Assembly: GCF_024223415.1 (NCBI RefSeq) | Contig: NZ_CP100500.1 | Length of the DNA stretch: 64,000 nt | Source: Escherichia coli | Lineage (GTDB): Bacteria; Pseudomonadota; Gammaproteobacteria; Enterobacterales; Enterobacteriaceae | Direction: 5' to 3' (one strand) | Part shown: piece after piece, positions 1,600 to 24,636 of the stretch | Position numbering within the stretch: the stretch's first letter is position 1 | Layout of the letters: each line of letters starts with the position of its first letter | Translations under genes and position numbers: made by a program | Notes under the pieces: model-generated | The model's database searches: none | What the model saw: the letters and a program-made list of their open reading frames with translations, nothing else | Told to the model about the DNA's origin: nothing

Positions 1600-1710
1600 T
1601 AAAGCTGCCTGATGCGCTATGCTTATCAGGCCTACATAGTCCCTGCAATATATTGAATTAGCAAGGTTTTGTAGGCCGGATAAGGCGTTCACGCCGCATC
1701 CGGCAGTAAT
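1600..1710. repeat. REP-like palindromic units in the torZ-cmoB convergent intergenic region
   Basis: Imperfect inverted repeats gcctgatgcgctatgcttatcaggcctaca and gtaggccggataaggcgttcacgccgcatccggca, typical of enterobacterial REP elements; coordinates approximate. Confidence 0.5.
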
Positions 1711-3919: not shown

Positions 3920-4678
3920 TCAGAAAAGAGAAGATTGCTGTGGAATAGCCGGAACTGCTCCGATCTCTGGAAGCGTTTTACGTAAGTCTTCCCACAGGGT
4001 ATGTACCAGTTCCGGTGCCTGGGCAATGTCTGGCGTATGTAAAAAAAGATAAGGCGTAGTGGTCTGATGCCACTGCGCTAATTTCTGTAACCAGACCTGA
4101 AATAATTCCCGGTTTTGCGTCATATCATCACTACCGATAAAACGGATCAGCGGATTTGTCGCCGTCAGTACAGCATGTACCGGAACTTTAGGTTTTTTTC
4201 GTTGAGCGTCGCGAATAGCTTCACTGTGTGGACGTGCTGCATGAACCGGGCGGCTGTCTAAAATCACCCGATTAACGCCGCGCTGATGTAAACCGCGATT
4301 AAGCGTTTGTTCCTCTTCCCCTTTGGCGAAAAACTGTGGATGGCGGACTTCCACACCATAATTAAATTCGCCAGGGAGAGAATCGAGAAAATGCCAAAGC
4401 GCAGGCAGCTCCCGTGGGCCGAATGTGGCAGGCAGTTGCAGCCAGTATTGCCCAATGCGCGGAGCCAACGGTGACATGCGGGTCAAAAATTCAGTCACTA
4501 AATCATCGCAATGTCGTAATGCTGCCTGATGCGAAATGGTCGCCGGAAACTTAAAACAGAAGCGGAAGTCATCTGTGGTCTGTTCACGCCAGCGCAGGAC
4601 AACCTCGGGTTTCGGCAGGGCGTAAAGCGTGGTGTTGCCCTCCACGCAGTTAACATGACGGGTATTGAAGGCTAACAC
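3920..4678 (-). CDS. yecE: DUF72 protein YecE with 5' end replaced by prophage sequence
   Basis: Body of the protein reads as YecE; the first ~10 codons (MLAFNTRHVN) differ from my recollection of the K-12 N-terminus, and the ORF overlaps the 3' end of the integrase gene. Confidence 0.75.
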   Translation of the reverse strand: MLAFNTRHVNCVEGNTTLYALPKPEVVLRWREQTTDDFRFCFKFPATISHQAALRHCDDLVTEFLTRMSPLAPRIGQYWLQLPATFGPRELPALWHFLDSLPGEFNYGVEVRHPQFFAKGEEEQTLNRGLHQRGVNRVILDSRPVHAARPHSEAIRDAQRKKPKVPVHAVLTATNPLIRFIGSDDMTQNRELFQVWLQKLAQWHQTTTPYLFLHTPDIAQAPELVHTLWEDLRKTLPEIGAVPAIPQQSSLF

Positions 4679-4690
4679 ACTGATTTTAAT
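4640..4690. other. putative prophage attachment junction (attL) within 5' end of yecE
   Basis: Point where YecE-like sequence ends and the integrase C-terminus overlaps; exact core not determinable without the other junction. Confidence 0.4.
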
Positions 4691-5985
4691 AAGTTTCTTG
4701 TGTCACTTTGGTGACCATGGGACATCATTGGGACATAATCTGCCAGCTTCTGATTCAGCATTGCGATCTGTTCTGCATTACTGTCAGTCATCCATGCTCC
4801 GTATACATTGAACACCATCTGGGCACTTGCATGGCCCATCTGGCTGGCAATGAAGCTTGGGTTTGCTCCGGCAGATAATGACCAGCACGCATAAGTGTGT
4901 CGTGACTGGTATGCTTTCCGGTGCCTGATGCCCGCACGCTTAATGGCTGTTTCCCATGAGTCGCCAATAGAATCTACCTTGTAGATAAAACCGACCTGTT
5001 TGCTTTTTCTAACCACCTGGGGGTTAAATACGAAAGTACATTCATGGTTCACTGTACGTCCATATTCACGTAGTTGAACCTTGATGTGGTGCTGCTTACC
5101 CAGTCTTGTCATTTCAGCCTGATTTTTCAGGACACTGATAGCGGGCTGGATAAGATGCACAACCCTGTTTGTACTTGCTTCAGTTTTAGGTAGAGTGAAC
5201 TCACCGAGTTTCGTATAATTGCGCCTGATAGTAATTGTTCCTGCTTTCAGATCGATATCTTCCCAGGCCAGGGAGACCAGTTCACCATGACGCATTCCTG
5301 TGTACACAGCCAATGACCACAGGTTTTTCGTCTGCTGATGTCGGCAAGCATCTATCAGGCGAATAAATTCGTCACGAGTTAGCGGATCTGGCTCTGCCCT
5401 GGCTCTTTTAAGAGGCTTAATTCCCTGGAAGGGATTTGCTTCTAAGTAACCGTGATCTGCAGCAAACTGAAACATTCCAGCGATTGTCGTCATGTAATAA
5501 TTTACAGTAACGACGCTCCGTCCTTTTGCTGCTGCTTTGTTTTTCGTTGAATTCTGGTACCCGGTCAGCAAATCTTTCCTGATATACAGCAATTCCTCTT
5601 TAGTTACCGATGACACCAGTCTGCTGCCTCCAATTTTCGGAACCATCGTTCTTGCAACGGATTCATAGCGATTGAATGCATTTGCAGAGATCTCCATTCG
5701 TTTCAGATCCAGCCACTTTTCTTCAAGTTCCTTCACCGTAATTTCTTTTTTACTTACCCCAAAAGCCTGAAGGTTAGGGGAGTCAGGGAACTGTGCAGCA
5801 TAATCAAAGCTTCCTGTGCGGATGGCAAAACATACCGATGTCCGCAGTTCCCCGGCGATCTTCCTGTTCTTGGCAGTGTCAGGGACACCAAGATTTTCCC
5901 TGACACGTTTACCTTTAAAATTAAACCAGATGCGTAATGTGCCGCCGTGGTTTTCGACGCCTGTTGGATATTTGACTTTATCCAT
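4672..5985 (-). CDS. int: phage integrase (tyrosine recombinase)
   Basis: 437 aa; N-terminal arm-binding-like region and C-terminal catalytic domain with conserved R..H..R..Y context (RHTYACW). Confidence 0.9.
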   Translation of the reverse strand: MDKVKYPTGVENHGGTLRIWFNFKGKRVRENLGVPDTAKNRKIAGELRTSVCFAIRTGSFDYAAQFPDSPNLQAFGVSKKEITVKELEEKWLDLKRMEISANAFNRYESVARTMVPKIGGSRLVSSVTKEELLYIRKDLLTGYQNSTKNKAAAKGRSVVTVNYYMTTIAGMFQFAADHGYLEANPFQGIKPLKRARAEPDPLTRDEFIRLIDACRHQQTKNLWSLAVYTGMRHGELVSLAWEDIDLKAGTITIRRNYTKLGEFTLPKTEASTNRVVHLIQPAISVLKNQAEMTRLGKQHHIKVQLREYGRTVNHECTFVFNPQVVRKSKQVGFIYKVDSIGDSWETAIKRAGIRHRKAYQSRHTYACWSLSAGANPSFIASQMGHASAQMVFNVYGAWMTDSNAEQIAMLNQKLADYVPMMSHGHQSDTRNLLKSVC

Positions 5986-6040: not shown

Positions 6041-6277
6041 TCACCCAGGTTGTTTGTTTTTCATTGAAGCGACCCAGGCATCTATTGCTTTTCTGTTATA
6101 CATACATTCACTGGAAGGCTTTGGATTACCGTCTGGTGATACGTGAATATACTCTCTTCCAACCATCCAGCATTCTTTCCGGGCCCGAAGAATTGTGCCT
6201 GGTTTGAGCCCGGTAATTGCGATTAGAACGCTTTCACAAACCCATTCATTGGGAGCCAGTTGAATCACATTGCCCAT
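6041..6277 (-). CDS. xis: putative excisionase
   Basis: 78 aa basic protein immediately upstream of int in the same orientation. Confidence 0.55.
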   Translation of the reverse strand: MGNVIQLAPNEWVCESVLIAITGLKPGTILRARKECWMVGREYIHVSPDGNPKPSSECMYNRKAIDAWVASMKNKQPG

Positions 6278-6678: not shown

Positions 6679-6709
6679 TTTTTCTCCTGCTCTCTGAATA
6701 GTGAGAACT

Positions 6710-7075
6710 TCAGAGTCGTATGTTTGTAGCGGGTTCAATGCTGATGATTTCTGCTGAGATAAGCATCCCGGCCAGCCAGAGCTCTCCGGACAGGTTTTCA
6801 TCCTTGCATTCCAGTCCGCCGATATTAATGGTGGCTATGATATCGCGCTTATCCTCGACTTCTTCATAAGGCAGCGTTGCGTACAGGCTTTCAATAGCGC
6901 AACTGATAACATCCAGTCCGGTCAGATTGCCGCCGACAGTGACTTCGAATGTTTCGCGGTATTCCCATAGCCCGAAAGTTAATCGAACGGTTTGTTTTGC
7001 CATGCGCCCGCATGACGTCAGATTCGGGTCATAGTTCATTATTTGCGGTTGAGTATTCTGGGCGTTCATCTGCAT
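6710..7075 (-). CDS. hypothetical phage protein
   Basis: ORF 6710..7141, likely start at internal Met (MQMNAQ...); no recognisable domain. Confidence 0.35.
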   Translation of the reverse strand: MQMNAQNTQPQIMNYDPNLTSCGRMAKQTVRLTFGLWEYRETFEVTVGGNLTGLDVISCAIESLYATLPYEEVEDKRDIIATINIGGLECKDENLSGELWLAGMLISAEIISIEPATNIRL

Positions 7076-7109
7076 TTCCCTTAGCCCGGCGGCCTGCCGG
7101 GCGTATAAG

Positions 7110-7937
7110 TTATTTAACCTGGATAAATGGTGTATTAGCACCGCTGGTCATGTATTGCGGCAGTGTGCCGTTCCATTTATTGATGGCTTCCAGCTCCATA
7201 ACGCCGGGGTTCTGACGCAGAGCTTCACCGCGTAAACGAATAGCATCAGCTTCGGCCTGGGCTTTTGTGCGAATCGCATCAGCCTGTCCGGCAGCTTCTG
7301 CGCGCAACATATTGGCTTCCGCTTCGCGCTGTTTTACTTCCTGCTCGCGCTGCAGTGTTTTCTGGTTCGCCGTGACTTTGGCATTAATGCTGTCGATAAC
7401 TGTTGGCGGGTACTCCGGCTTACCCACATATGAGAGGCTCATTACCTGAATACCGATAGGTGTCATCTCTGCCTGAATGTCTTTAAGAGCTTCATCCAGC
7501 AGCTCAGACTTGCCGCCGTCGATAAATTTGTCAGTGGTCATTTTGCTGGCCAGTCGGTTGAGTGCGTCGGCGATCTTCTGGCGCAGGTCAGTGTCGGTAA
7601 TGTCATCCACGCCTTTGCGGTAGGTCTGAAACACCGTGGTAACTTTGGATGGATCAACTTTGTAGGCCACGCCAATGTGATAGCCGATGGTTGTACCGTC
7701 ACTCATCTGGAAACTGAACGGTTCATCGTAGGTCTTCATTTGTTTGAAGGTGGGGAAGATATAAACTTCAGTATTCCAGCCAGTCCAGTAGCGACCAACA
7801 CCGACCACCTCACCGACGCCTTTGTCGTCGCCCAGTTTATTTACCTTGATGCCAACATTACCTGGTTCAACGCGATCGCAACCGACAAGGCCAATAGTCG
7901 GCAGAACAATGGCTAAAGCAAAAATAATTTTTTTCAT
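7110..7937 (-). CDS. SPFH/band-7 (prohibitin/stomatin-like) domain lipoprotein
   Basis: 275 aa; signal peptide with lipobox (LVGC); central SPFH-like region followed by Ala/Glu/Gln-rich coiled coil. Confidence 0.65.
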   Translation of the reverse strand: MKKIIFALAIVLPTIGLVGCDRVEPGNVGIKVNKLGDDKGVGEVVGVGRYWTGWNTEVYIFPTFKQMKTYDEPFSFQMSDGTTIGYHIGVAYKVDPSKVTTVFQTYRKGVDDITDTDLRQKIADALNRLASKMTTDKFIDGGKSELLDEALKDIQAEMTPIGIQVMSLSYVGKPEYPPTVIDSINAKVTANQKTLQREQEVKQREAEANMLRAEAAGQADAIRTKAQAEADAIRLRGEALRQNPGVMELEAINKWNGTLPQYMTSGANTPFIQVK

Positions 7938-8122
7938 CTTTTATCCTTAGTGAAAGAAAGACCCTTGTAAATGGCATAAATGCAGGGCGGGGTCAGAAAC
8001 GCCAGTGCAAAGCCAGAAATAACTGCTATCGTATCCTTCATGGATATAAGGAACGGAACGAGTAATCCGTAAATGCATGCGATAATTGCCAGTAAAATTA
8101 CTATTGTGAAATACAGTCTCAT
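7934..8122 (-). CDS. small two-helix membrane protein
   Basis: 62 aa, two hydrophobic helices; stop/start overlap (ATGA) with the SPFH gene downstream. Confidence 0.45.
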   Translation of the reverse strand: MRLYFTIVILLAIIACIYGLLVPFLISMKDTIAVISGFALAFLTPPCIYAIYKGLSFTKDKR

Positions 8123-8145
8123 TGGTCTGTGGTATCCCGATATTT

Positions 8146-8253
8146 TTAACCGACTGACAGCGCAATAAAGAGAATAATGATTTCTGTTAGTGTCAGCACT
8201 GTGGCAAGGATTAAAATCAGTTTTACTCTGTTTAATTCACGGTTGCTTTTCAT
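8146..8253 (-). CDS. small hydrophobic membrane peptide (35 aa)
   Basis: Hand-translated minus-strand ORF MKSNRELNRVKLILILATVLTLTEIIILFIALSVG upstream of the 62 aa gene; below the ORF-track size cutoff. Confidence 0.3.
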   Translation of the reverse strand: MKSNRELNRVKLILILATVLTLTEIIILFIALSVG

Positions 8254-8298
8254 ATAAACGGTTAGTAAAAAACGGAAGAATTATTTTCTTCTTAATAT

Positions 8299-8880
8299 TT
8301 AATGTGTCACTGGCGCTTCTGGCATACCATGAGTATTCAGGTCGTGAATCATTTCATCCAGAAGGAGTTCAAGCCCTTCGCGCCCCATAGCAGAGAGAAT
8401 GAAACCATTATCAGGATCTGCGATGAGCATTTTTTGATAGAGAAACAGAACTCGCCCCATGCCTTCAGTTTCGCCATATTTTTCAATAAATCCCCATTCG
8501 ACATGGTTTTGCAGGGCAATGCGAAGTGGTCCTGGGTATATACTTATGCAACCATGTTTCCCCTTGTAAATAACTGCGCGATCTGTCGTCCCGTTATCGT
8601 TAGGGATATCAATAGTGCCGTTCTTGTCTTCCTCTTCACTGATAAACTTCATCACATACAGCCAGCGCCACTGAGCAACCTTCAGATCGACTGAAAATCT
8701 TCCCAGCAATCCGGCATCATCAGCTTCGGCAAGACATTGCATGATTCTTAAACCGTGCCAGTATGGATTATCGAATTCGCCATCATTAAGCCGCTGTACG
8801 GCCTGAATATAATCAATGGTTGTATTACCAATTTTTATGCCATGTGGCGTTACTTCTGGTCGGAACTCTGAATGATTCAT
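8299..8880 (-). CDS. hypothetical protein (193 aa from internal Met)
   Basis: ORF 8299..8937; likely start MNHSEFRPEV overlapping the stop of the upstream 67 aa gene (ATGA); no recognisable domain. Confidence 0.45.
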   Translation of the reverse strand: MNHSEFRPEVTPHGIKIGNTTIDYIQAVQRLNDGEFDNPYWHGLRIMQCLAEADDAGLLGRFSVDLKVAQWRWLYVMKFISEEEDKNGTIDIPNDNGTTDRAVIYKGKHGCISIYPGPLRIALQNHVEWGFIEKYGETEGMGRVLFLYQKMLIADPDNGFILSAMGREGLELLLDEMIHDLNTHGMPEAPVTH

Positions 8881-10357: not shown

Positions 10358-10386
10358 ATATTATGCTTTGAGAAATAGGCTGTCAA
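10358..10386 (-). promoter_or_regulatory. strong sigma70-like promoter reading leftward (pL-like)
   Basis: Minus-strand TTGACA, 17-bp spacer, TAATAT, ~50 bp upstream of the HTH gene start; coordinates approximate. Confidence 0.45.
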
Positions 10387-10449: not shown

Positions 10450-11145
10450 CTAACCAAATCTGTTTATATTGAATGGTACTGATGAGATCACTTTAGACTG
10501 GATATAAAGCAGAGCTAACCCCTCTTTTTCGATGCTCCATGGTTGATAATTGGGGTTATCAGATAACACCATGATTTTGCTTCCAATTTTTTGAAGTCTT
10601 TTCACGTAGCATTCTCCATCAAAACAAAATGCATAAATGCCATCGCCATCAAAATAAGTTACTGTCTTATCAAGAAAAAGAAGGTCGCCAGGTGAGATTG
10701 TGGGAGCCATACTGTCTCCTCTGGCGTTACCTATTTCTATATTTTTGAATGCCCGATTTCCAACAAGGCGTCGGGCATATTCAGGATCAAGTTCTATTGA
10801 GCGCACTACATCTATCAAGTCACCACGGACATGAGTTCCATCACCGCAACTAAACTCAACATCAAGGACATTAAACACGACGCTATCTGTTCTTGTCTGG
10901 TGTTTCTCTTGCGAGGAAAAGGTTGGTGAGGAGTCTTCACCTAAGAACCAGGATTGTGGATAACCGCTAATCTCGGATAAATGCGCGAGCTTATCACTCC
11001 GTGGAAATGTTTTTCCTGTTGTCCAGTACTGCACTGATTGCGCACTCACACCTAACTTGCGGGCCAGTTGAGCCTGAGTCCATCCTTTTGCTTTCAGCAT
11101 CGCGGCTATTCGATTTTCCGTGTTTTTGACGTTCTTCATGACCAA
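10450..11145 (-). CDS. cI: CI-like repressor (HTH plus S24 LexA-type autopeptidase domain)
   Basis: 231 aa; N-terminal HTH (KGWTQAQLARKLGVSAQSVQYW), C-terminal S24 peptidase motifs (GDSMAPT...KRL); divergent from cro. Confidence 0.88.
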   Translation of the reverse strand: MVMKNVKNTENRIAAMLKAKGWTQAQLARKLGVSAQSVQYWTTGKTFPRSDKLAHLSEISGYPQSWFLGEDSSPTFSSQEKHQTRTDSVVFNVLDVEFSCGDGTHVRGDLIDVVRSIELDPEYARRLVGNRAFKNIEIGNARGDSMAPTISPGDLLFLDKTVTYFDGDGIYAFCFDGECYVKRLQKIGSKIMVLSDNPNYQPWSIEKEGLALLYIQSKVISSVPFNINRFG

Positions 11146-12703: not shown

Positions 12704-13380
12704 CGGCGAGTAGGTACAAAATGATCCGCAACCAACATATTGATTCTGCAATTTCGGGACGTTACACTGTTCCAGCACCTTATAAAGCGGGTGCCGGGAT
12801 TGGAACCCCGGAATTGCATACGGCGATATACGACGCGCCAGCGTCTTTTTTATCGTCCGCGCTCACGCACGCCAGAATTATGGTGGGCTGGGCAGGGGAG
12901 CCGAAAGGCTCGCCGGTTTCCGTATGCGCCGGTAGTTCCAACCCTGTCCAGTTCACCACCAGTGAGATTGGAACCTCCGGTGGTGGAAGTTATCCATTGC
13001 ATACGGAGGCTGCCATCATGGCTACAGTCCCAACTTCCCCATACCTGAAAATCGAAGTCGTCAACGGCAAGGCCGTTATTTTCTCCCTGCATGTTGCCTG
13101 CCATTTCAAGCGCATGCACCAGAACATCGTCGACAAAATCGAGTATCTGAACTGCTCGCGCGAATTTTTTACCCGCAATTTCATACCGGGTACTTATCAC
13201 ATCTATGGTGACTCCCTGCGTGGTTATTACATCACCCTTGATGGTCTGATGATGCTTCAGCTTGGGTTAAGTCTACGCACAATGCGGTACTACGAGAGCT
13301 GCATTGAAGCATTCCAGGAGGCAGGGAACAGCCTGAATCTTACCGCTTTCCGCCGTAATCAGTGGGAGGCGCGTCCATGA
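12700..13380 (+). CDS. hypothetical protein (start uncertain; possibly internal Met at ~13018)
   Basis: ORF 12700..13380; the first ~100 codons are low-complexity and may be non-coding. Confidence 0.35.
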   Translation: MTASRYKMIRNQHIDSAISGRYTVPAPYKAGAGIGTPELHTAIYDAPASFLSSALTHARIMVGWAGEPKGSPVSVCAGSSNPVQFTTSEIGTSGGGSYPLHTEAAIMATVPTSPYLKIEVVNGKAVIFSLHVACHFKRMHQNIVDKIEYLNCSREFFTRNFIPGTYHIYGDSLRGYYITLDGLMMLQLGLSLRTMRYYESCIEAFQEAGNSLNLTAFRRNQWEARP

Positions 13381-20685: not shown

Positions 20686-20761
20686 GGCCCTTTAGCTCAG
20701 TGGTGAGAGCGAGCGACTCATAATCGCAAGGGCGCTGGTTCAAATTCAGCAAGGGCCACCA
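20686..20761 (+). tRNA. tRNA with CAU anticodon (Met, or Ile2 if lysidine-modified)
   Basis: Hand-folded cloverleaf: acceptor GGCCCTT/AAGGGCC, D-arm TAGCTCAGTGGTGAGAGC, anticodon loop CTCATAA, T-loop TTCAAAT, 3' CCA; coordinates approximate. Confidence 0.75.
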
Positions 20762-20762
20762 A

Positions 20763-20839
20763 CCGCTACTAGCTCATCAGGAAAGAGCGTCAACCCTTTA
20801 AGTTGAGTGCGCTAGGTTCGATTCCCCGCTGGCGGTCCA
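20763..20839 (+). tRNA. tRNA-like sequence, degenerate (possible tRNA or tRNA pseudogene)
   Basis: D-arm (GCTC...GAGC) and T-loop (GGTTCGATTCC) are tRNA-like and 3' ends in CCA, but T-stem has mismatches and anticodon loop CCTTTAA lacks U33. Confidence 0.35.
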
Positions 20840-21254: not shown

Positions 21255-21527
21255 ATGAGAATGGACGAACGATACAGTAACGCTGCATACGGCAGCGCAG
21301 GACTTGTTGCGTTCTTTGCCAGCCTGTCACTGCAGGATTGGGGATTTATTATCGGCGTGGCGTTCAGTATCATTCTTGGCGTTCTTACTTATCGCCTTAA
21401 CAAACGGGAGCAGGAAAAACGAACCCGCATATTGCTCGAAATTCTGGAACGAACTAATGCCGGTAATGTTCCGGCTACGGCACATGCTGTGGCTGAGATT
21501 GCGAAAAAGGCACCAAAAGAAATATGA
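21255..21527 (+). CDS. class II holin (pinholin-like) with MRM dual-start motif
   Basis: 90 aa; two hydrophobic helices (LVAFFASLSL..., FIIGVAFSIILGVLTY), charged C-terminus; Met1-Arg-Met3 resembles holin/antiholin dual starts. Confidence 0.6.
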   Translation: MRMDERYSNAAYGSAGLVAFFASLSLQDWGFIIGVAFSIILGVLTYRLNKREQEKRTRILLEILERTNAGNVPATAHAVAEIAKKAPKEI

Positions 21528-21683
21528 CGAATATCCCGGGAGTGAGGGGATAATATACCTTTTAACAAAATCCGGGAACATGAAACGCCCGGAACGTTTC
21601 ATGAGGCATGCCCCGTGGGGAGCAGGGCATAACTGTGCGGAATAGCTTTCATTGTGATATCAATAATCACGGTATTCAAAATA

Positions 21684-22061
21684 TTACGGGCCTGTGGGAT
21701 CAGGTTGTTTTTTGTCTGATTCCAGAGGGAAGGGACGCTGTTTCGGTTCTCTGAACTTTAGTGATAATGAATTGAAAATCCTCATTTTTTGCTGCCATGC
21801 ATAATGTCTGTCCCATGAACAGGGGGGGCTCAATTCTTCATTCACCCATGCGTTAATATCTTGTTTCAGGTGTTGAAGCATACGGGGTGTTAATGCACTC
21901 ATAATAATATCCAGCGTTTTATGCGAGAGTTTACCGTAAGGGTCTGCAAGGATGCTGCTCGTTGCTTCGTTATTATCCACCATAAGTGGAAGTAGCGCTG
22001 ATTTAACTTTTTCTGTCATTAGTTGCAAAAATCTACTGCGCAAATTTTCTTTACTGTTCAT
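21684..22061 (-). CDS. hypothetical protein between holin and endolysin (opposite strand)
   Basis: 125 aa ORF, no recognisable domain. Confidence 0.4.
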   Translation of the reverse strand: MNSKENLRSRFLQLMTEKVKSALLPLMVDNNEATSSILADPYGKLSHKTLDIIMSALTPRMLQHLKQDINAWVNEELSPPCSWDRHYAWQQKMRIFNSLSLKFREPKQRPFPLESDKKQPDPTGP

Positions 22062-22184
22062 TTCTGAAGCCTCATCTGTTGTCGTTTGGTTTTCCTGAAC
22101 GGGTATGTTTATGAGACATGCTGGTACTGGATTATATACCTGATATATCCAGGGTTATAAACCTTTAGATCCTGATAAATATAC

Positions 22185-22718
22185 ATGAACGCAAAAATCA
22201 GATACGGCCTGTCGGCTGCCGTTCTGGCGCTGATTGGTGCTGGCGCATCTGCTCCTCAGATACTTGATCAGTTTCTGGACGAAAAAGAGGGTAACCACAC
22301 AACGGCATACCGCGATGGGTCCGGCATCTGGACCATCTGTCGGGGTGCCACGATGGTGGATGGAAAACCCGTTTTTCCCGGAATGAAGCTGTCGAAGGAA
22401 AAATGCGACCAGGTTAACGCTATTGAACGTGATAAGGCACTGGCATGGGTGGAGCGCAATATTAAAGTACCTCTGACCGAACCACAGAAAGCGGGTATTG
22501 CGTCATTCTGTCCCTATAACATTGGCCCCGGTAAGTGTTTCCCGTCGACGTTTTATAAGCGGCTTAATGCCGGTGATCGAAAAGGCGCCTGCGAGGCGAT
22601 TCGCTGGTGGATAAAGGATGGTGGGCGCGATTGCCGCATACGTTCAAATAACTGCTATGGACAGGTTATTCGTCGTGACCAGGAAAGCGCATTAGCCTGT
22701 TGGGGGATAGATCAGTGA
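22185..22718 (+). CDS. SAR endolysin (T4-lysozyme-like, GH24)
   Basis: 177 aa; N-terminal signal-anchor-release helix ([15 protein letters not shown]), catalytic E..D..T triad context ([20 protein letters not shown]). Confidence 0.85.
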
Positions 22719-23182
22719 GCAGAGTCGCCGCGATTATTTATGCTCTGGTTATCTGCATCATCGTCTGCCTGTCGTGGGCGGTCAATCATTACCGTGATAA
22801 CGCCATCGCCTACAAAGAACAGCGAGATAAAAAAGTCAGTGAGCTGAAGCAGGCGACCGCCACCATTACTGACATGCAGCAACGCCAGCGTGCTGCTGAT
22901 GTACTCGATGCTAAATACACGAAGGAGTTAGCTGATGCGAAAGCTAAAAATGATGCTCTTCGGCGCAAGCTTGATAATGGTGGCAGGGTGCTCGTCAAAG
23001 GAAAATGCCCTGTGCCATCCTCAGCCGAAACCTCCAGCGCCTCCGGCATGGGCAATGATGCCACCGTCGAACTCTCTCCAGTTGCTGGACGAAACGTTCT
23101 CGGTGTCCGGGACGGAATTATCCGCGACCAAACAGCACTGAGAACGCTTCAGGAATACATCAGGACGCAATGCCTTCGATGA
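22700..23182 (+). CDS. i-spanin Rz
   Basis: 160 aa; N-terminal TM helix, coiled-coil periplasmic domain, overlaps endolysin 3' end. Confidence 0.75.
22935..23141 (+). CDS. o-spanin Rz1 (lipoprotein embedded in Rz in another frame)
   Basis: 68 aa; lipobox LIMVAGCSS, Pro-rich mature part; fully embedded in Rz. Confidence 0.7.
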
Positions 23183-23688: not shown

Positions 23689-24309
23689 CCATTACAAAGC
23701 CTATCTACGGGTGGGCTTGATAATGAAACCAGAATTTATTCTGGGAAACCAGTTACGGCAGTACAGCGAAACAACCCAAGCCAGTAAGTGGGGAAATAAC
23801 ACTGGCAGCCACTGAAAGATGAACCTCCTGCCTTATGGCAAAAAAGATTCTTTGTGGTGGCGGACTGATGGAAAGACATCGGTTATTGCAGAGACCATTC
23901 AATGAGTGGTCTCGACAATGGCTTATACCCTACACGGGATAACTTAACTGATATCCCTTTTAACGGATAAAGGTATTCAAGCCTGACATATCATGCGCTG
24001 TATCGTCGCCGTATTCCCGTATTAACAGAGACCGTAGCCCGACGGGGAACTCCTTCTGCGCGAGTGTGCGGGAATAATCAAAAACGATGCACACCGGGTT
24101 TTTACCGCGTTTATGGTTCGCGGGTTTGTCCCTCATGCTCGCCAGTCCGGTGCGATGGTGGAAGAAACCGGAAGCTGTATTACAGAAAGTGCTACTACTG
24201 TATCCTGATGCGATGTATGTAATGTGAGTCAGATAATGGCACAGGATGTGGTGATGTGGCAGTCTGGAACACAGGATATATTGTCAGAATAAGACCCGTA
24301 GGAATAAAA

Positions 24310-24636
24310 ATGAAAAGACGCCTTTCACTACTTTTTCTGTTATCTGCCCTGGCAGTGGGATGCTCGCAGCAAAAAGCTGATGAGCCCCGGCAATTAGTGA
24401 CGGTGTATCCACGATATCCGGAATATGCTGCAGCAAATTATATCAAGGGGCTGGTTGAGGTTAAGTTCGATATTGGTGCTGACGGGACTGTGACACGGAT
24501 CGTTTTTCTCCGCTCAGAGCCTCATAATTTGTTTCGTGATGAAGTGGTGAAGGCCATGGCGAAATGGAGATTTGAAAAGAATAGTCCCCGTCAGGGAGTG
24601 AAGAGACAATTTATCTTTACGCCATCACGTCCCTGA
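24310..24636 (+). CDS. TonB C-terminal-domain-like lipoprotein
   Basis: Internal Met of ORF 24256..24636 gives MKRRLSLLFLLSALAVGCSQQK (lipobox), followed by a TonB-C-like region (YPRYPEYAAANYIKGLVEVKFDIGADGTV). Confidence 0.55.
   Translation: MKRRLSLLFLLSALAVGCSQQKADEPRQLVTVYPRYPEYAAANYIKGLVEVKFDIGADGTVTRIVFLRSEPHNLFRDEVVKAMAKWRFEKNSPRQGVKRQFIFTPSRP

What the first reader, a model, noticed from the sequence alone, without database searches (positions are those of the whole stretch)
7110..8253. SPFH/band-7 lipoprotein co-encoded with two tiny membrane peptides
A 275 aa lipoprotein with an SPFH-like domain and a long Ala/Gln/Glu coiled-coil tail is translationally coupled (ATGA overlap) to a 62 aa two-helix membrane protein, with a further 35 aa hydrophobic peptide upstream. 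SPFH proteins normally partner with NfeD-type membrane proteins; a phage-borne SPFH lipoprotein with miniature membrane partners is unusual and could act as a membrane-level exclusion or abortive-infection module.
Basis: inference. Interest (0 to 1): 0.7.

Follow-up and report, generated by a model that had tools for sequence, protein, structure and literature searches.

The report
Phage SPFH lipoprotein with hairpin partner
A prophage gene pair, a small two-helix inner-membrane protein and a lipid-anchored SPFH scaffold protein, is real and occurs in hundreds of phages, including strictly lytic ones such as N4; its function is untested, and it looks like an early-infection membrane device rather than a prophage defence module.

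Summary
ORF 7110-7937(-) is a 275-aa SPFH/Band_7 lipoprotein (Pfam E=3e-31, lipobox LVGC, Asp at +2). Its model (pLDDT 92) resembles the cage-forming SPFH proteins HflK/C, prohibitin, erlin and stomatin.

ORF 7934-8122(-) is a 62-aa two-helix protein joined to it by an ATGA overlap, and it is a real gene. It is under purifying selection. A homologue lies just upstream of the SPFH gene in 23 of about 27 lipoprotein-type phage lineages examined. In 18 of the 150 best representative homologues it is fused in frame to the SPFH protein (hhalign probability 98%).

The 35-aa ORF 8146-8253(-) is doubtful. It is confined to phiP27-like left arms, absent from about a third of them, and shows no coding signature.

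The pair is not rare: 413 of 50,697 phage records and about 10% of complete E. coli genomes carry the SPFH gene. Carriers include the lytic phage N4 (gp19/gp20), rV5-like, FelixO1-like, crAss-like, jumbo and Lak phages, all with diderm (two-membrane) hosts, usually among early genes.

The partner is not NfeD, and the pair matches no known defence system. The best reading is a periplasm-facing SPFH cage with a separate membrane hairpin, used early in lytic growth. The target is unknown, so the exclusion or abortive-infection idea is neither supported nor excluded.

The parts
7110..7937 (-). SPFH/Band_7 lipoprotein precursor, 275 aa. Signal peptide residues 1-19, lipidated Cys20, Asp21 at +2, SPFH domains about 22-176, long helix 178-242, short helix 244-254, C-terminal tail with invariant W255.
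   Evidence: Pfam PF01145 E=3e-31. phrog_200 E=2.7e-114. AF2 model pLDDT 92.3. Foldseek top hits are HflC/HflK 7vhq at E about 1e-14, then prohibitin, erlin, stomatin, flotillin and QmcA. pN/pS 0.03.
7878..7937 (-). Signal peptide and lipobox (L-V-G-C; the Cys20 codon is 7878-7880). The recombination boundary between the variable hairpin/signal-peptide part and the conserved mature part lies about here.
   Evidence: Seen directly in the sequence. Cys is present in 85 of 86 diverse homologues and is invariant in the alignment that includes all 18 fusions (C82). The DNA match to P88 and P1-like phages starts at about residue 17.
7934..8122 (-). 62-aa inner-membrane helical hairpin (TM1 about residues 2-26, periplasmic turn S-M-K-D, TM2 about 31-55, basic C-terminal tail). 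It is the conserved partner of the SPFH lipoprotein. Conserved positions are P23, S27 and G37.
   Evidence: phrog_1130 E=2.5e-23. Alignment A1. Free hairpins against fusion N-termini by hhalign: probability 98.1%, E=8e-14; reversed control 1.1%. AF2 of the concatenated pair gives hairpin pLDDT about 90. pN/pS 0.23.
7934..7937 (-). ATGA overlap: the hairpin stop codon overlaps the SPFH start codon, which implies translational coupling.
   Evidence: Overlaps of 4 to 20 nt recur in P88, phiE125, Pacha, OLIVR5, BcepF1, N4 and the P1-like phage.
8146..8253 (-). 35-aa hydrophobic ORF. Doubtful gene, probably not part of the module.
   Evidence: No family hits. Not annotated by PGAP. Absent from about a third of close loci and from all distant ones. 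pN/pS 0.52 with no third-position bias.
10358..10386 (-). Promoter-like site (TTGACA-17-TAATAT), just downstream of the cI-like repressor gene and a terminator-like hairpin. It is a candidate early-left promoter for the operon that contains the pair. This is a pattern match only.
   Evidence: Promoter-like matches in this region are not more frequent than in shuffled sequence, so this is weak evidence.

Best explanation
The 62-aa and 275-aa genes form a two-part phage membrane-scaffold module. Shown: the 275-aa protein belongs to the SPFH family and has the architecture of the cage-forming members. Its precursor carries a lipoprotein signal with Asp at +2. The 62-aa protein is a conserved helical hairpin whose conserved residues cluster at the turn between the helices. 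The two genes are adjacent, translationally coupled, or fused in frame, across very distant phages. Inferred: the SPFH protein is exported, lipidated and retained in the outer leaflet of the inner membrane. There it would oligomerise through its long helix into a ring or cage on the periplasmic face, like HflK/C. The hairpin, made in roughly 1:1 amounts, would supply the membrane-spanning part and dock at its periplasmic turn under the SPFH1 domain. Together they would fence off a patch of inner membrane. In fused versions the invariant lipobox Cys suggests that signal peptidase II (LspA) cuts the two parts apart after lipidation. Because the pair sits among early genes of many virulent phages of diderm hosts, I infer that it acts early in lytic growth. 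My best guess for its purpose is insulating or protecting the infected cell's inner membrane at its periplasmic face: blocking secondary DNA injection, or resisting envelope damage. Capture of a host inner-membrane protein such as FtsH is the main alternative.
For: SPFH identity and fold. Lipobox, Asp +2 and conserved Cys. Asp at +2 as an inner-membrane retention signal in E. coli is established knowledge. Hairpin family with a conserved turn motif. A hairpin gene lies upstream on the same strand in 23 of about 27 lipoprotein-type lineages. Ten were used to build the HMM. Thirteen are independent detections: SSE121 3e-15, Teru 2e-9, crAss Bcn3 4e-5, MM7 3e-3, L097 8e-6, L098 6e-4, fENko-Kae01 4e-11, pEa_SNUABM_56 6.5e-14, DLP_6 5e-14, Pokken 6e-11, PHB09 2e-9, Lak-B3 2e-9 and bajarodcaudo 7.5e-5. 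Eighteen of the top 150 representatives are in-frame fusions. Three of these reads were confirmed on phage-like contigs. Homology of the free hairpin to the fused one: hhalign probability 98.1% against 1.1% for the reversed control. Spread among virulent phages of diderm hosts. Early-gene neighbourhoods. Here the pair is 14 kb from the lysis cassette, on the other strand, in the leftward operon.
Against: No experiment bears on the localisation, oligomeric state, hairpin-SPFH contact or phenotype, and no functional study was found. Some lineages have the SPFH lipoprotein without a detectable hairpin: phiCbK and the L099-L106 clade. Mature SPFH is 95-98% identical among phiP27, P88 and P1-like phages, while their hairpins are only 25-46% identical. 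A tight, specific interface would therefore have to rest on a few conserved residues. Alternatively, the hairpin may work with the signal peptide or with something else. The specific purpose (membrane insulation or exclusion) is a guess.
Confidence: 0.55

Rival explanations
1. HflK/C mimic. The phage cage captures or modulates the host protease FtsH, or another inner-membrane enzyme. This would alter turnover of phage or host proteins such as CII-type regulators, LpxC or SecY.
For: The closest solved structures and the closest sequence relatives are HflK/HflC in complex with FtsH. Like HflK/C, the SPFH part faces the periplasm. One phage paper speculates along these lines (PMC10269572).
Against: Scores are far below the HflC/HflK family cut-offs: 25.9 against 134.4 bits and 23.1 against 159.4 bits. 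There is one SPFH gene, not a K/C pair, and the anchor is a lipid, not a transmembrane helix. The pair occurs in obligately lytic phages that make no lysogeny decision. No feature tested here links it to FtsH.
Confidence: 0.2
2. One reading: a prophage-expressed exclusion or abortive-infection module that protects the lysogen against other phages.
For: The pair is an accessory cargo gene exchanged among lambdoid, P2-like and P1-like temperate phages. The hairpin diverges fast while the SPFH part stays constant, as a specificity subunit might. Small inner-membrane proteins do mediate exclusion in other phages, for example T4 Imm (my own knowledge).
Against: No PADLOC hit. The pair lies inside early lytic operons with no convincing promoter of its own. 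It is widespread in virulent phages, which have no lysogen to protect. A self-killing abortive function would be odd as an early gene of a lytic phage.
Confidence: 0.12
3. Lysis-timing device. The hairpin is a holin- or antiholin-like protein (two helices, basic tail) whose assembly the SPFH cage restrains.
For: Its size, two helices and charged C-terminus resemble class II holins. One family member has a faint holin Pfam hit at E=0.04. SPFH proteins do regulate channels such as stomatin's partners (established knowledge).
Against: The pair lies 14 kb from this prophage's holin, lysozyme and Rz genes, on the other strand, and among early genes elsewhere. The conserved residues sit at the periplasmic turn, not along a pore-lining face. 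No holin family matched significantly.
Confidence: 0.08
4. Lysogenic-conversion lipoprotein that acts on the animal host, as reported for the prophage HflK/C-like protein PM0222 of Pasteurella multocida.
For: PM0222 is prophage-borne, HflK/C-like, released in outer-membrane vesicles, and signals through TLR1/2 as triacylated lipoproteins do (PMC9872710).
Against: The family is common in lytic phages of environmental and plant bacteria. TLR2 stimulation is a generic property of lipoproteins.
Confidence: 0.05

Closest known systems
HflK/HflC-FtsH complex of E. coli (PDB 7vhp, 7vhq, 7wi3, 9cz2)
   Same: SPFH1/2 domains, one long wall-forming helix and a C-terminal cap segment. The bulk of the protein lies on the periplasmic side of the inner membrane. 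These are the best structural and sequence matches among solved structures.
   Different: Identity is only about 17-18%, and scores are far below the family cut-offs. The anchor is a lipid rather than an N-terminal transmembrane helix. There is a single SPFH gene, not a K/C heteromer, and a separate or fused two-helix hairpin partner. No link to FtsH has been shown.
SPFH-NfeD operons, for example QmcA-YbbJ (PDB 8z5g) and YqiK-YqiJ
   Same: An SPFH scaffold is co-transcribed with a small membrane protein partner. QmcA is a structural match (rank 32).
   Different: The partner has no NfeD OB-fold domain and no Pfam family at all. The partner gene lies upstream and is translationally coupled or fused. 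The SPFH part faces the periplasm, not the cytoplasm.
Eukaryotic stomatin
   Same: A hydrophobic hairpin, a lipidated cysteine, an SPFH domain and an oligomerising helix build a membrane-attached cage (PMC5456319 abstract, seen; structural match). The fused phage versions have the same order of parts.
   Different: In the phage system the hairpin is a true two-helix transmembrane hairpin, usually a separate polypeptide. Lipidation would go through the bacterial lipoprotein pathway. The cage sits on the extracytoplasmic face.
Phage N4 gp19/gp20 and PHROG families 1130 and 200
   Same: Direct homologues of the pair. gp20 is 62% identical over its full length. gp19 is a 68-aa hairpin that overlaps the gp20 start.
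   Different: These are catalogue entries only ('gp19', 'gp20', 'lipoprotein', 'membrane protein'). I found no described function and no description of them as a pair.
T4 Imm and Sp superinfection-exclusion proteins (recalled from my own knowledge, not tested here)
   Same: Small early-expressed inner-membrane or periplasmic proteins of a lytic phage that act at the periplasmic face of the inner membrane.
   Different: No sequence or fold relationship was tested or is expected. This is an analogy for one candidate function only.

Membership tests
SPFH / Band 7 superfamily (PF01145) | Significant match to the Band_7 profile | tested here: met
   E=3e-31 over residues 22-208, covering the full model 2-176/176.
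SPFH / Band 7 superfamily (PF01145) | Alpha/beta SPFH fold followed by a long oligomerising helix, as in the cage-forming members | tested here: met
   AF2 pLDDT 92.3. Strands 20-94 and 163-175, helix 178-242. Foldseek probability 1.00 to HflK/C, prohibitin, erlin, stomatin, flotillin and QmcA.
SPFH / Band 7 superfamily (PF01145) | Assembly into a homo-oligomeric ring or cage on a membrane | not testable with these tools
   Only monomer prediction was available. This needs AF-multimer, cryo-EM or native PAGE.
HflK / HflC (FtsH modulators) | Score at or above the curated NCBIfam equivalog cut-off | tested here: not met
   HflC 25.9 bits against a cut-off of 134.4. HflK 23.1 bits against 159.4.
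HflK / HflC (FtsH modulators) | N-terminal transmembrane anchor and a paired K plus C paralogue arrangement | tested here: not met
   The protein has a lipobox signal peptide instead of a transmembrane anchor. There is a single SPFH gene, flanked by the hairpin gene and a DUF5406 gene.
HflK / HflC (FtsH modulators) | Binds and encloses FtsH | not testable with these tools
   Needs a pull-down or a structure.
SPFH-NfeD two-gene operon | Partner carries an NfeD (PF01957) OB-fold domain | tested here: not met
   No Pfam family reaches E<=0.001 in any of the 28 hairpin sequences, and NfeD is not in the list. The partner is only 49-84 aa, with room for nothing but two helices.
SPFH-NfeD two-gene operon | SPFH gene and a membrane-protein partner adjacent and co-transcribed | tested here: met
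   ATGA overlap here. The arrangement is adjacent, near or fused in 23 of about 27 lineages and in 18 fusions.
Bacterial lipoproteins (Lgt/LspA/Lnt pathway) | Signal peptide ending in a lipobox [LVI][ASTVI][GAS]C | tested here: met
   MKKIIFALAIVLPTIG-LVGC. Cys is present in 85 of 86 homologues.
Bacterial lipoproteins (Lgt/LspA/Lnt pathway) | Actual lipidation, and inner-membrane retention through Asp at +2 | not testable with these tools
   Asp21 is present. The +2 rule is established for E. coli, but localisation needs fractionation and globomycin.
Known anti-phage defence systems (PADLOC-DB v2) | Match to any defence-system protein model | tested here: not met
   No hit at E<=0.01 for the SPFH protein, the hairpin, the 35-aa ORF or three neighbouring proteins.
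Holins (class II) | Match to a holin family and a position in the lysis cassette | tested here: not met
   Best holin Pfam hit is E=0.04 in 1 of 28 members. The lysis cassette lies at 21255-23182(+), 14 kb away.
PHROG 200 (lipoprotein) and PHROG 1130 (membrane protein) | Significant match to the family profile | tested here: met
   E=2.7e-114 and E=2.5e-23. The phrog_200 profile has about 80 extra N-terminal positions, consistent with fused members.

The most novel reading that the evidence does not exclude
Phages of diderm bacteria widely encode their own periplasm-facing SPFH cage, built from a lipoprotein and a detachable transmembrane hairpin. The cage would wall off patches of the infected cell's inner membrane early in infection. 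Its purpose would be to block entry of competing phage DNA, seal or shield the membrane against envelope-acting defences, or trap a host membrane enzyme. That would be a previously undescribed class of viral membrane-organising takeover device. It would also be the first SPFH system with a split anchor, and it can be tested directly in phage N4 (gp19/gp20).
Probability: 0.3. Interest if true: 0.75.

Novelty: new variant of a known kind. Interest (0 to 1): 0.5.

Why it matters
SPFH scaffolds (HflK/C, prohibitin, stomatin, flotillin, erlin) now have a run of cage structures, but their bacterial functions remain unclear. Phage versions have only been noted in annotation tables.

This work shows that the phage SPFH lipoprotein almost always travels with a conserved two-helix partner, and is sometimes fused to it. 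That defines a compact two-gene module with a non-NfeD partner, and a clear hypothesis about a split membrane anchor.

The module is present in model phages such as N4 and P1-like plasmids, in Stx-converting prophages, and in about a tenth of complete E. coli genomes. Simple genetics could therefore reveal what a periplasmic SPFH cage does for a virus.

This particular locus is an ordinary copy of a widespread module, not a rarity.

Tried and rejected
- **Defence systems:** PADLOC gave no hits for the three ORFs or their neighbours.
- **Hairpin family:** Pfam and PDB sequence searches found no NfeD, no YbbJ and nothing significant. All database homologues are named 'hypothetical'.
- **The 'serine protease' label** on phiP27 L05 and Stx-phage homologues is rejected as a propagated misannotation, because no protease domain was found. 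The weak phrog_11227 'protease' hit falls in the coiled-coil region.
- **Own promoter or terminator for the pair:** promoter-like and terminator-like sites are no more frequent than in shuffled sequence. Only a weak 9/12 match lies upstream of the 35-aa ORF.
- **GC content:** it gives no clean island boundary.
- **Structured RNA:** Rfam finds no RNA family within or between the three ORFs (7110-8298).
- **35-aa ORF against P88's 37-aa membrane protein gp07:** no similarity.
- **Wider locus sampling:** single-sequence scans with P0190 and P0229 returned only 1 and 10 loci. Diversity was sampled from the phage collection instead.
- **Literature:** six searches found no functional study of phage SPFH lipoproteins or of N4 gp19/gp20.
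- **The 35-aa peptide:** I ran no further search on it.

Full report
**Observation.** The window carries the left arm of a phiP27-like lambdoid prophage. The integrase is at 4672-5985(-) and the excisionase at 6041-6277(-). Region 6700-8400 is 97% identical to phage phiP27 and 93% identical to a set of Stx2-converting phages.

ORFs of 275, 62 and 35 aa lie at the stated coordinates on the minus strand. The 62-aa and 275-aa ORFs share the bases ATGA at 7934-7937. An AAGGA ribosome-binding site for the 275-aa gene lies six bases before its ATG, inside the 62-aa ORF. Neither of the two small ORFs has a clear ribosome-binding site of its own.

**The 275-aa protein.**
- It has a full-length Band_7/SPFH domain (PF01145, E=3e-31) and belongs to PHROG 200, 'lipoprotein' (E=2.7e-114).
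- It starts with a signal peptide ending in the lipobox LVGC, followed by Asp.
- In an alignment of 86 homologues sharing 31-62% identity, the Cys is present in 85.
- Asp at +2 is the classical E. coli signal for retention in the inner membrane (established knowledge). The mature protein should therefore hang from the outer leaflet of the inner membrane, in the periplasm.
- AlphaFold2 gives a confident model (pLDDT 92.3): a beta-rich SPFH region begins two residues after the Cys, followed by one 65-residue helix (178-242), a short helix and a tail.
- Foldseek against the PDB places it with the cage-forming SPFH proteins. HflC/HflK rank first (E about 1e-14), then prohibitin, erlin, stomatin, flotillin and QmcA.
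- By sequence it is not an HflK or HflC orthologue: 23-26 bits against cut-offs of 134-159.
- It is under strong purifying selection (pN/pS 0.03).

**The 62-aa protein.**
- It has two hydrophobic helices joined by a four-residue turn, and a basic C-terminal tail. By the positive-inside rule both ends should be cytoplasmic.
- It matches PHROG 1130. PGAP annotates it in a near-identical E. coli prophage.
- It is kept in 79 of 79 informative IMG/VR loci.
- It evolves under purifying selection: pN/pS 0.23, with variable sites mostly at third codon positions.

- The same SPFH gene, 95-98% identical in its mature part, also sits in the P2-like phage P88 and in P1-like phage-plasmids. Each time a two-helix ORF of 67 or 78 aa precedes it and overlaps its start.
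- A tblastn search of 50,697 phage records finds the SPFH protein in 413.
- These include obligately lytic phages: N4 (gp20, 62% identical), rV5-like, FelixO1-like and LUZ24-like phages, jumbo phages, phiCbK, Mx1, crAss-like phages and Lak megaphages.
- All 60 evenly spaced rows of that search are phages of diderm hosts.
- I read 23 such loci and 11 metagenomic ones.
- An HMM built from ten free hairpins and 18 fusion N-termini finds a hairpin ORF upstream on the same strand in 13 further lineages that were not used to build it. E-values run from 3e-15 to 3e-3. Several of these ORFs are unannotated.
- In total, 23 of about 27 lipoprotein-type lineages have the hairpin, next to the SPFH gene or one or two genes upstream of it.
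- phiCbK and one distant gut-phage clade (L099-L106) do not.
- Skarpretter carries a different, transmembrane-anchored SPFH protein without a hairpin. I did not count it among the lipoprotein-type lineages.
- The conserved positions of the hairpin (P23, S27, G37, and a D/S-T pair) cluster at the periplasmic turn.

**Fusions.**
- A search of 1.84 billion representative proteins gives 228 clusters at E<=1e-30.
- Eighteen of the best 150 are 322-392 aa long. They carry, in frame, an N-terminal two-helix hairpin with the same turn motif, a basic linker, a signal-peptide-like helix, a lipobox Cys and the SPFH protein.
- A profile-profile comparison of free hairpins with these N-termini gives probability 98.1% (E=8e-14), against 1.1% for reversed sequences.
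- Three fusion reads were confirmed on phage-like contigs.
- The Cys is invariant across the fusions. This suggests, as an inference, that the fusion is lipidated and then cut by signal peptidase II into the same two parts.

**The 35-aa ORF.**
- It occurs only in phiP27-like left arms. In about 25 of 78 close loci a 130-aa gene takes its place. It is absent from all distant versions.
- It has no family, no ribosome-binding site and no PGAP annotation.
- Its variation shows no coding signature.
- I treat it as doubtful and as not part of the module.

**Context and expression.**
- In this prophage the pair lies in the leftward operon. Upstream are the cI-like repressor gene (10450-11145), a terminator-like hairpin and a good promoter-like site at 10386-10358. 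These are pattern matches only.
- The holin, lysozyme and Rz genes lie at 21255-23182 on the other strand.
- In P88 the pair is in the early operon, before the replication gene.
- In N4 it follows the RNAP2 genes.
- Elsewhere it sits among nucleotide-metabolism and replication genes.
- I infer early lytic expression, not lysogen-specific expression.

**What it most likely is.** The pair is a two-part SPFH membrane scaffold. The lipoprotein would form a ring or cage on the periplasmic face of the inner membrane. The hairpin would supply the membrane-spanning fence, in roughly equal amounts because of the coupling or fusion.

The identity of the parts and their linkage are shown. Localisation, oligomerisation and contact between the two proteins are inferred.

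What the enclosed membrane patch is for is unknown. I lean towards insulation of the infected cell's inner membrane, either exclusion of secondary DNA entry or resistance to envelope insults. The reasons are the early timing, the periplasmic face, and the restriction to diderm hosts.

An HflK/C-like capture of FtsH or another membrane enzyme is the main rival. The abortive-infection or defence reading has no positive support: PADLOC is empty, and many carriers are lytic phages.

One observation complicates a tight-interface model. Among E. coli phages the mature SPFH part is nearly identical, while the hairpin and signal peptide differ strongly (25-46% identity). The recombination boundary lies at the lipobox.

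**Comparison with known systems.**
- It works like HflK/C in fold and in membrane face.
- It resembles SPFH-NfeD operons in having a scaffold plus a small membrane partner.
- It resembles stomatin in the order hairpin, lipidated Cys, SPFH, helix.
- It fails the membership tests for HflK/C and for NfeD partnership.
- The family is already catalogued (PHROGs 200 and 1130, N4 gp19/gp20, RefSeq 'SPFH domain-containing protein').
- In the paper library I found only annotation-level remarks, one speculation about lysogeny, and one Pasteurella prophage protein studied as a virulence factor.
- I found no description of the hairpin partnership or of the fusions.

**Verdict.** This is a real and widespread two-gene phage module, and this locus is an ordinary copy of it. 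The module is a new variant of the SPFH-plus-partner theme, with unknown function. The third ORF should be dropped. Interest is moderate (0.5): this copy is not surprising, but the module is a well-defined and easily testable open question.

Noticed in passing
window 7878-8122 compared with L002 (P88) and L003 (P1-like): There is a sharp mosaic boundary at the lipobox. Mature SPFH is 95-98% identical between lambdoid, P2-like and P1-like phages. The signal peptide (40-46%) and the hairpin (25-46%) are different alleles. Two hairpin types, about 62-65 aa and about 67-70 aa, circulate in E. coli.
   Followed up: partly
window 12775-12963 (+) and 51426-51614 (-): Two copies of an isrK sRNA plus C4 antisense RNA pair (P1/P7-type immunity RNA) lie in inverted orientation about 38 kb apart. 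The second copy may mark a second prophage or the other end of this one.
   Followed up: no
window 60270-60363 (-): A tryptophan operon leader (93 bits) shows chromosomal DNA at the right end of the window. An ES036/CssrF sRNA match lies at 1628-1670(-) at the left end.
   Followed up: no
window 20686-20839 (+): Phage-borne tRNA-Met(CAT) and tRNA-Lys(TTT) lie just upstream of the lysis cassette. The related prophage in E. coli A36 carries tRNA-Thr and tRNA-Gly at the same place.
   Followed up: no
window 24256-24636 (+): A 126-aa ORF with a lipoprotein signal (LSALAVGC) lies downstream of the Rz-like gene. It may be a second phage-borne lipoprotein cargo gene. It was not characterised.
   Followed up: no
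window 6710-7141 (-): The longest form of the downstream DUF5406 ORF (143 aa, GTG start) would overlap the 3' end of the SPFH gene by 32 nt. The PHROG match starts at residue 25, and PGAP calls a 119-aa product, so the true start is probably internal.
   Followed up: partly
L001 (phiP27 RefSeq), L003 (P1-like MH422554), L091 (PhiCrAssBcn3), L115 (Pokken), L118 (Lak-B3): The hairpin gene is unannotated in several deposited phage genomes. The SPFH gene carries misleading names in others: 'serine protease', 'transposase' in DLP_6, and 'RIIB lysis inhibitor' or 'Dda-like helicase' in some Klebsiella phage records.
   Followed up: partly
L110 218-1807: In one metagenomic phage contig the fused hairpin-SPFH gene lies two genes downstream of an Acb2/Tad1-hairpin family gene (an anti-CBASS/Thoeris sponge). 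This places it in an early counter-defence or accessory region. It is a single observation.
   Followed up: no
E. coli genome collection: Of the places matching this 1.27-kb locus in 569 of 5,426 complete E. coli genomes, 239 are on plasmids, presumably P1-like and SSU5-like phage-plasmids.
   Followed up: no
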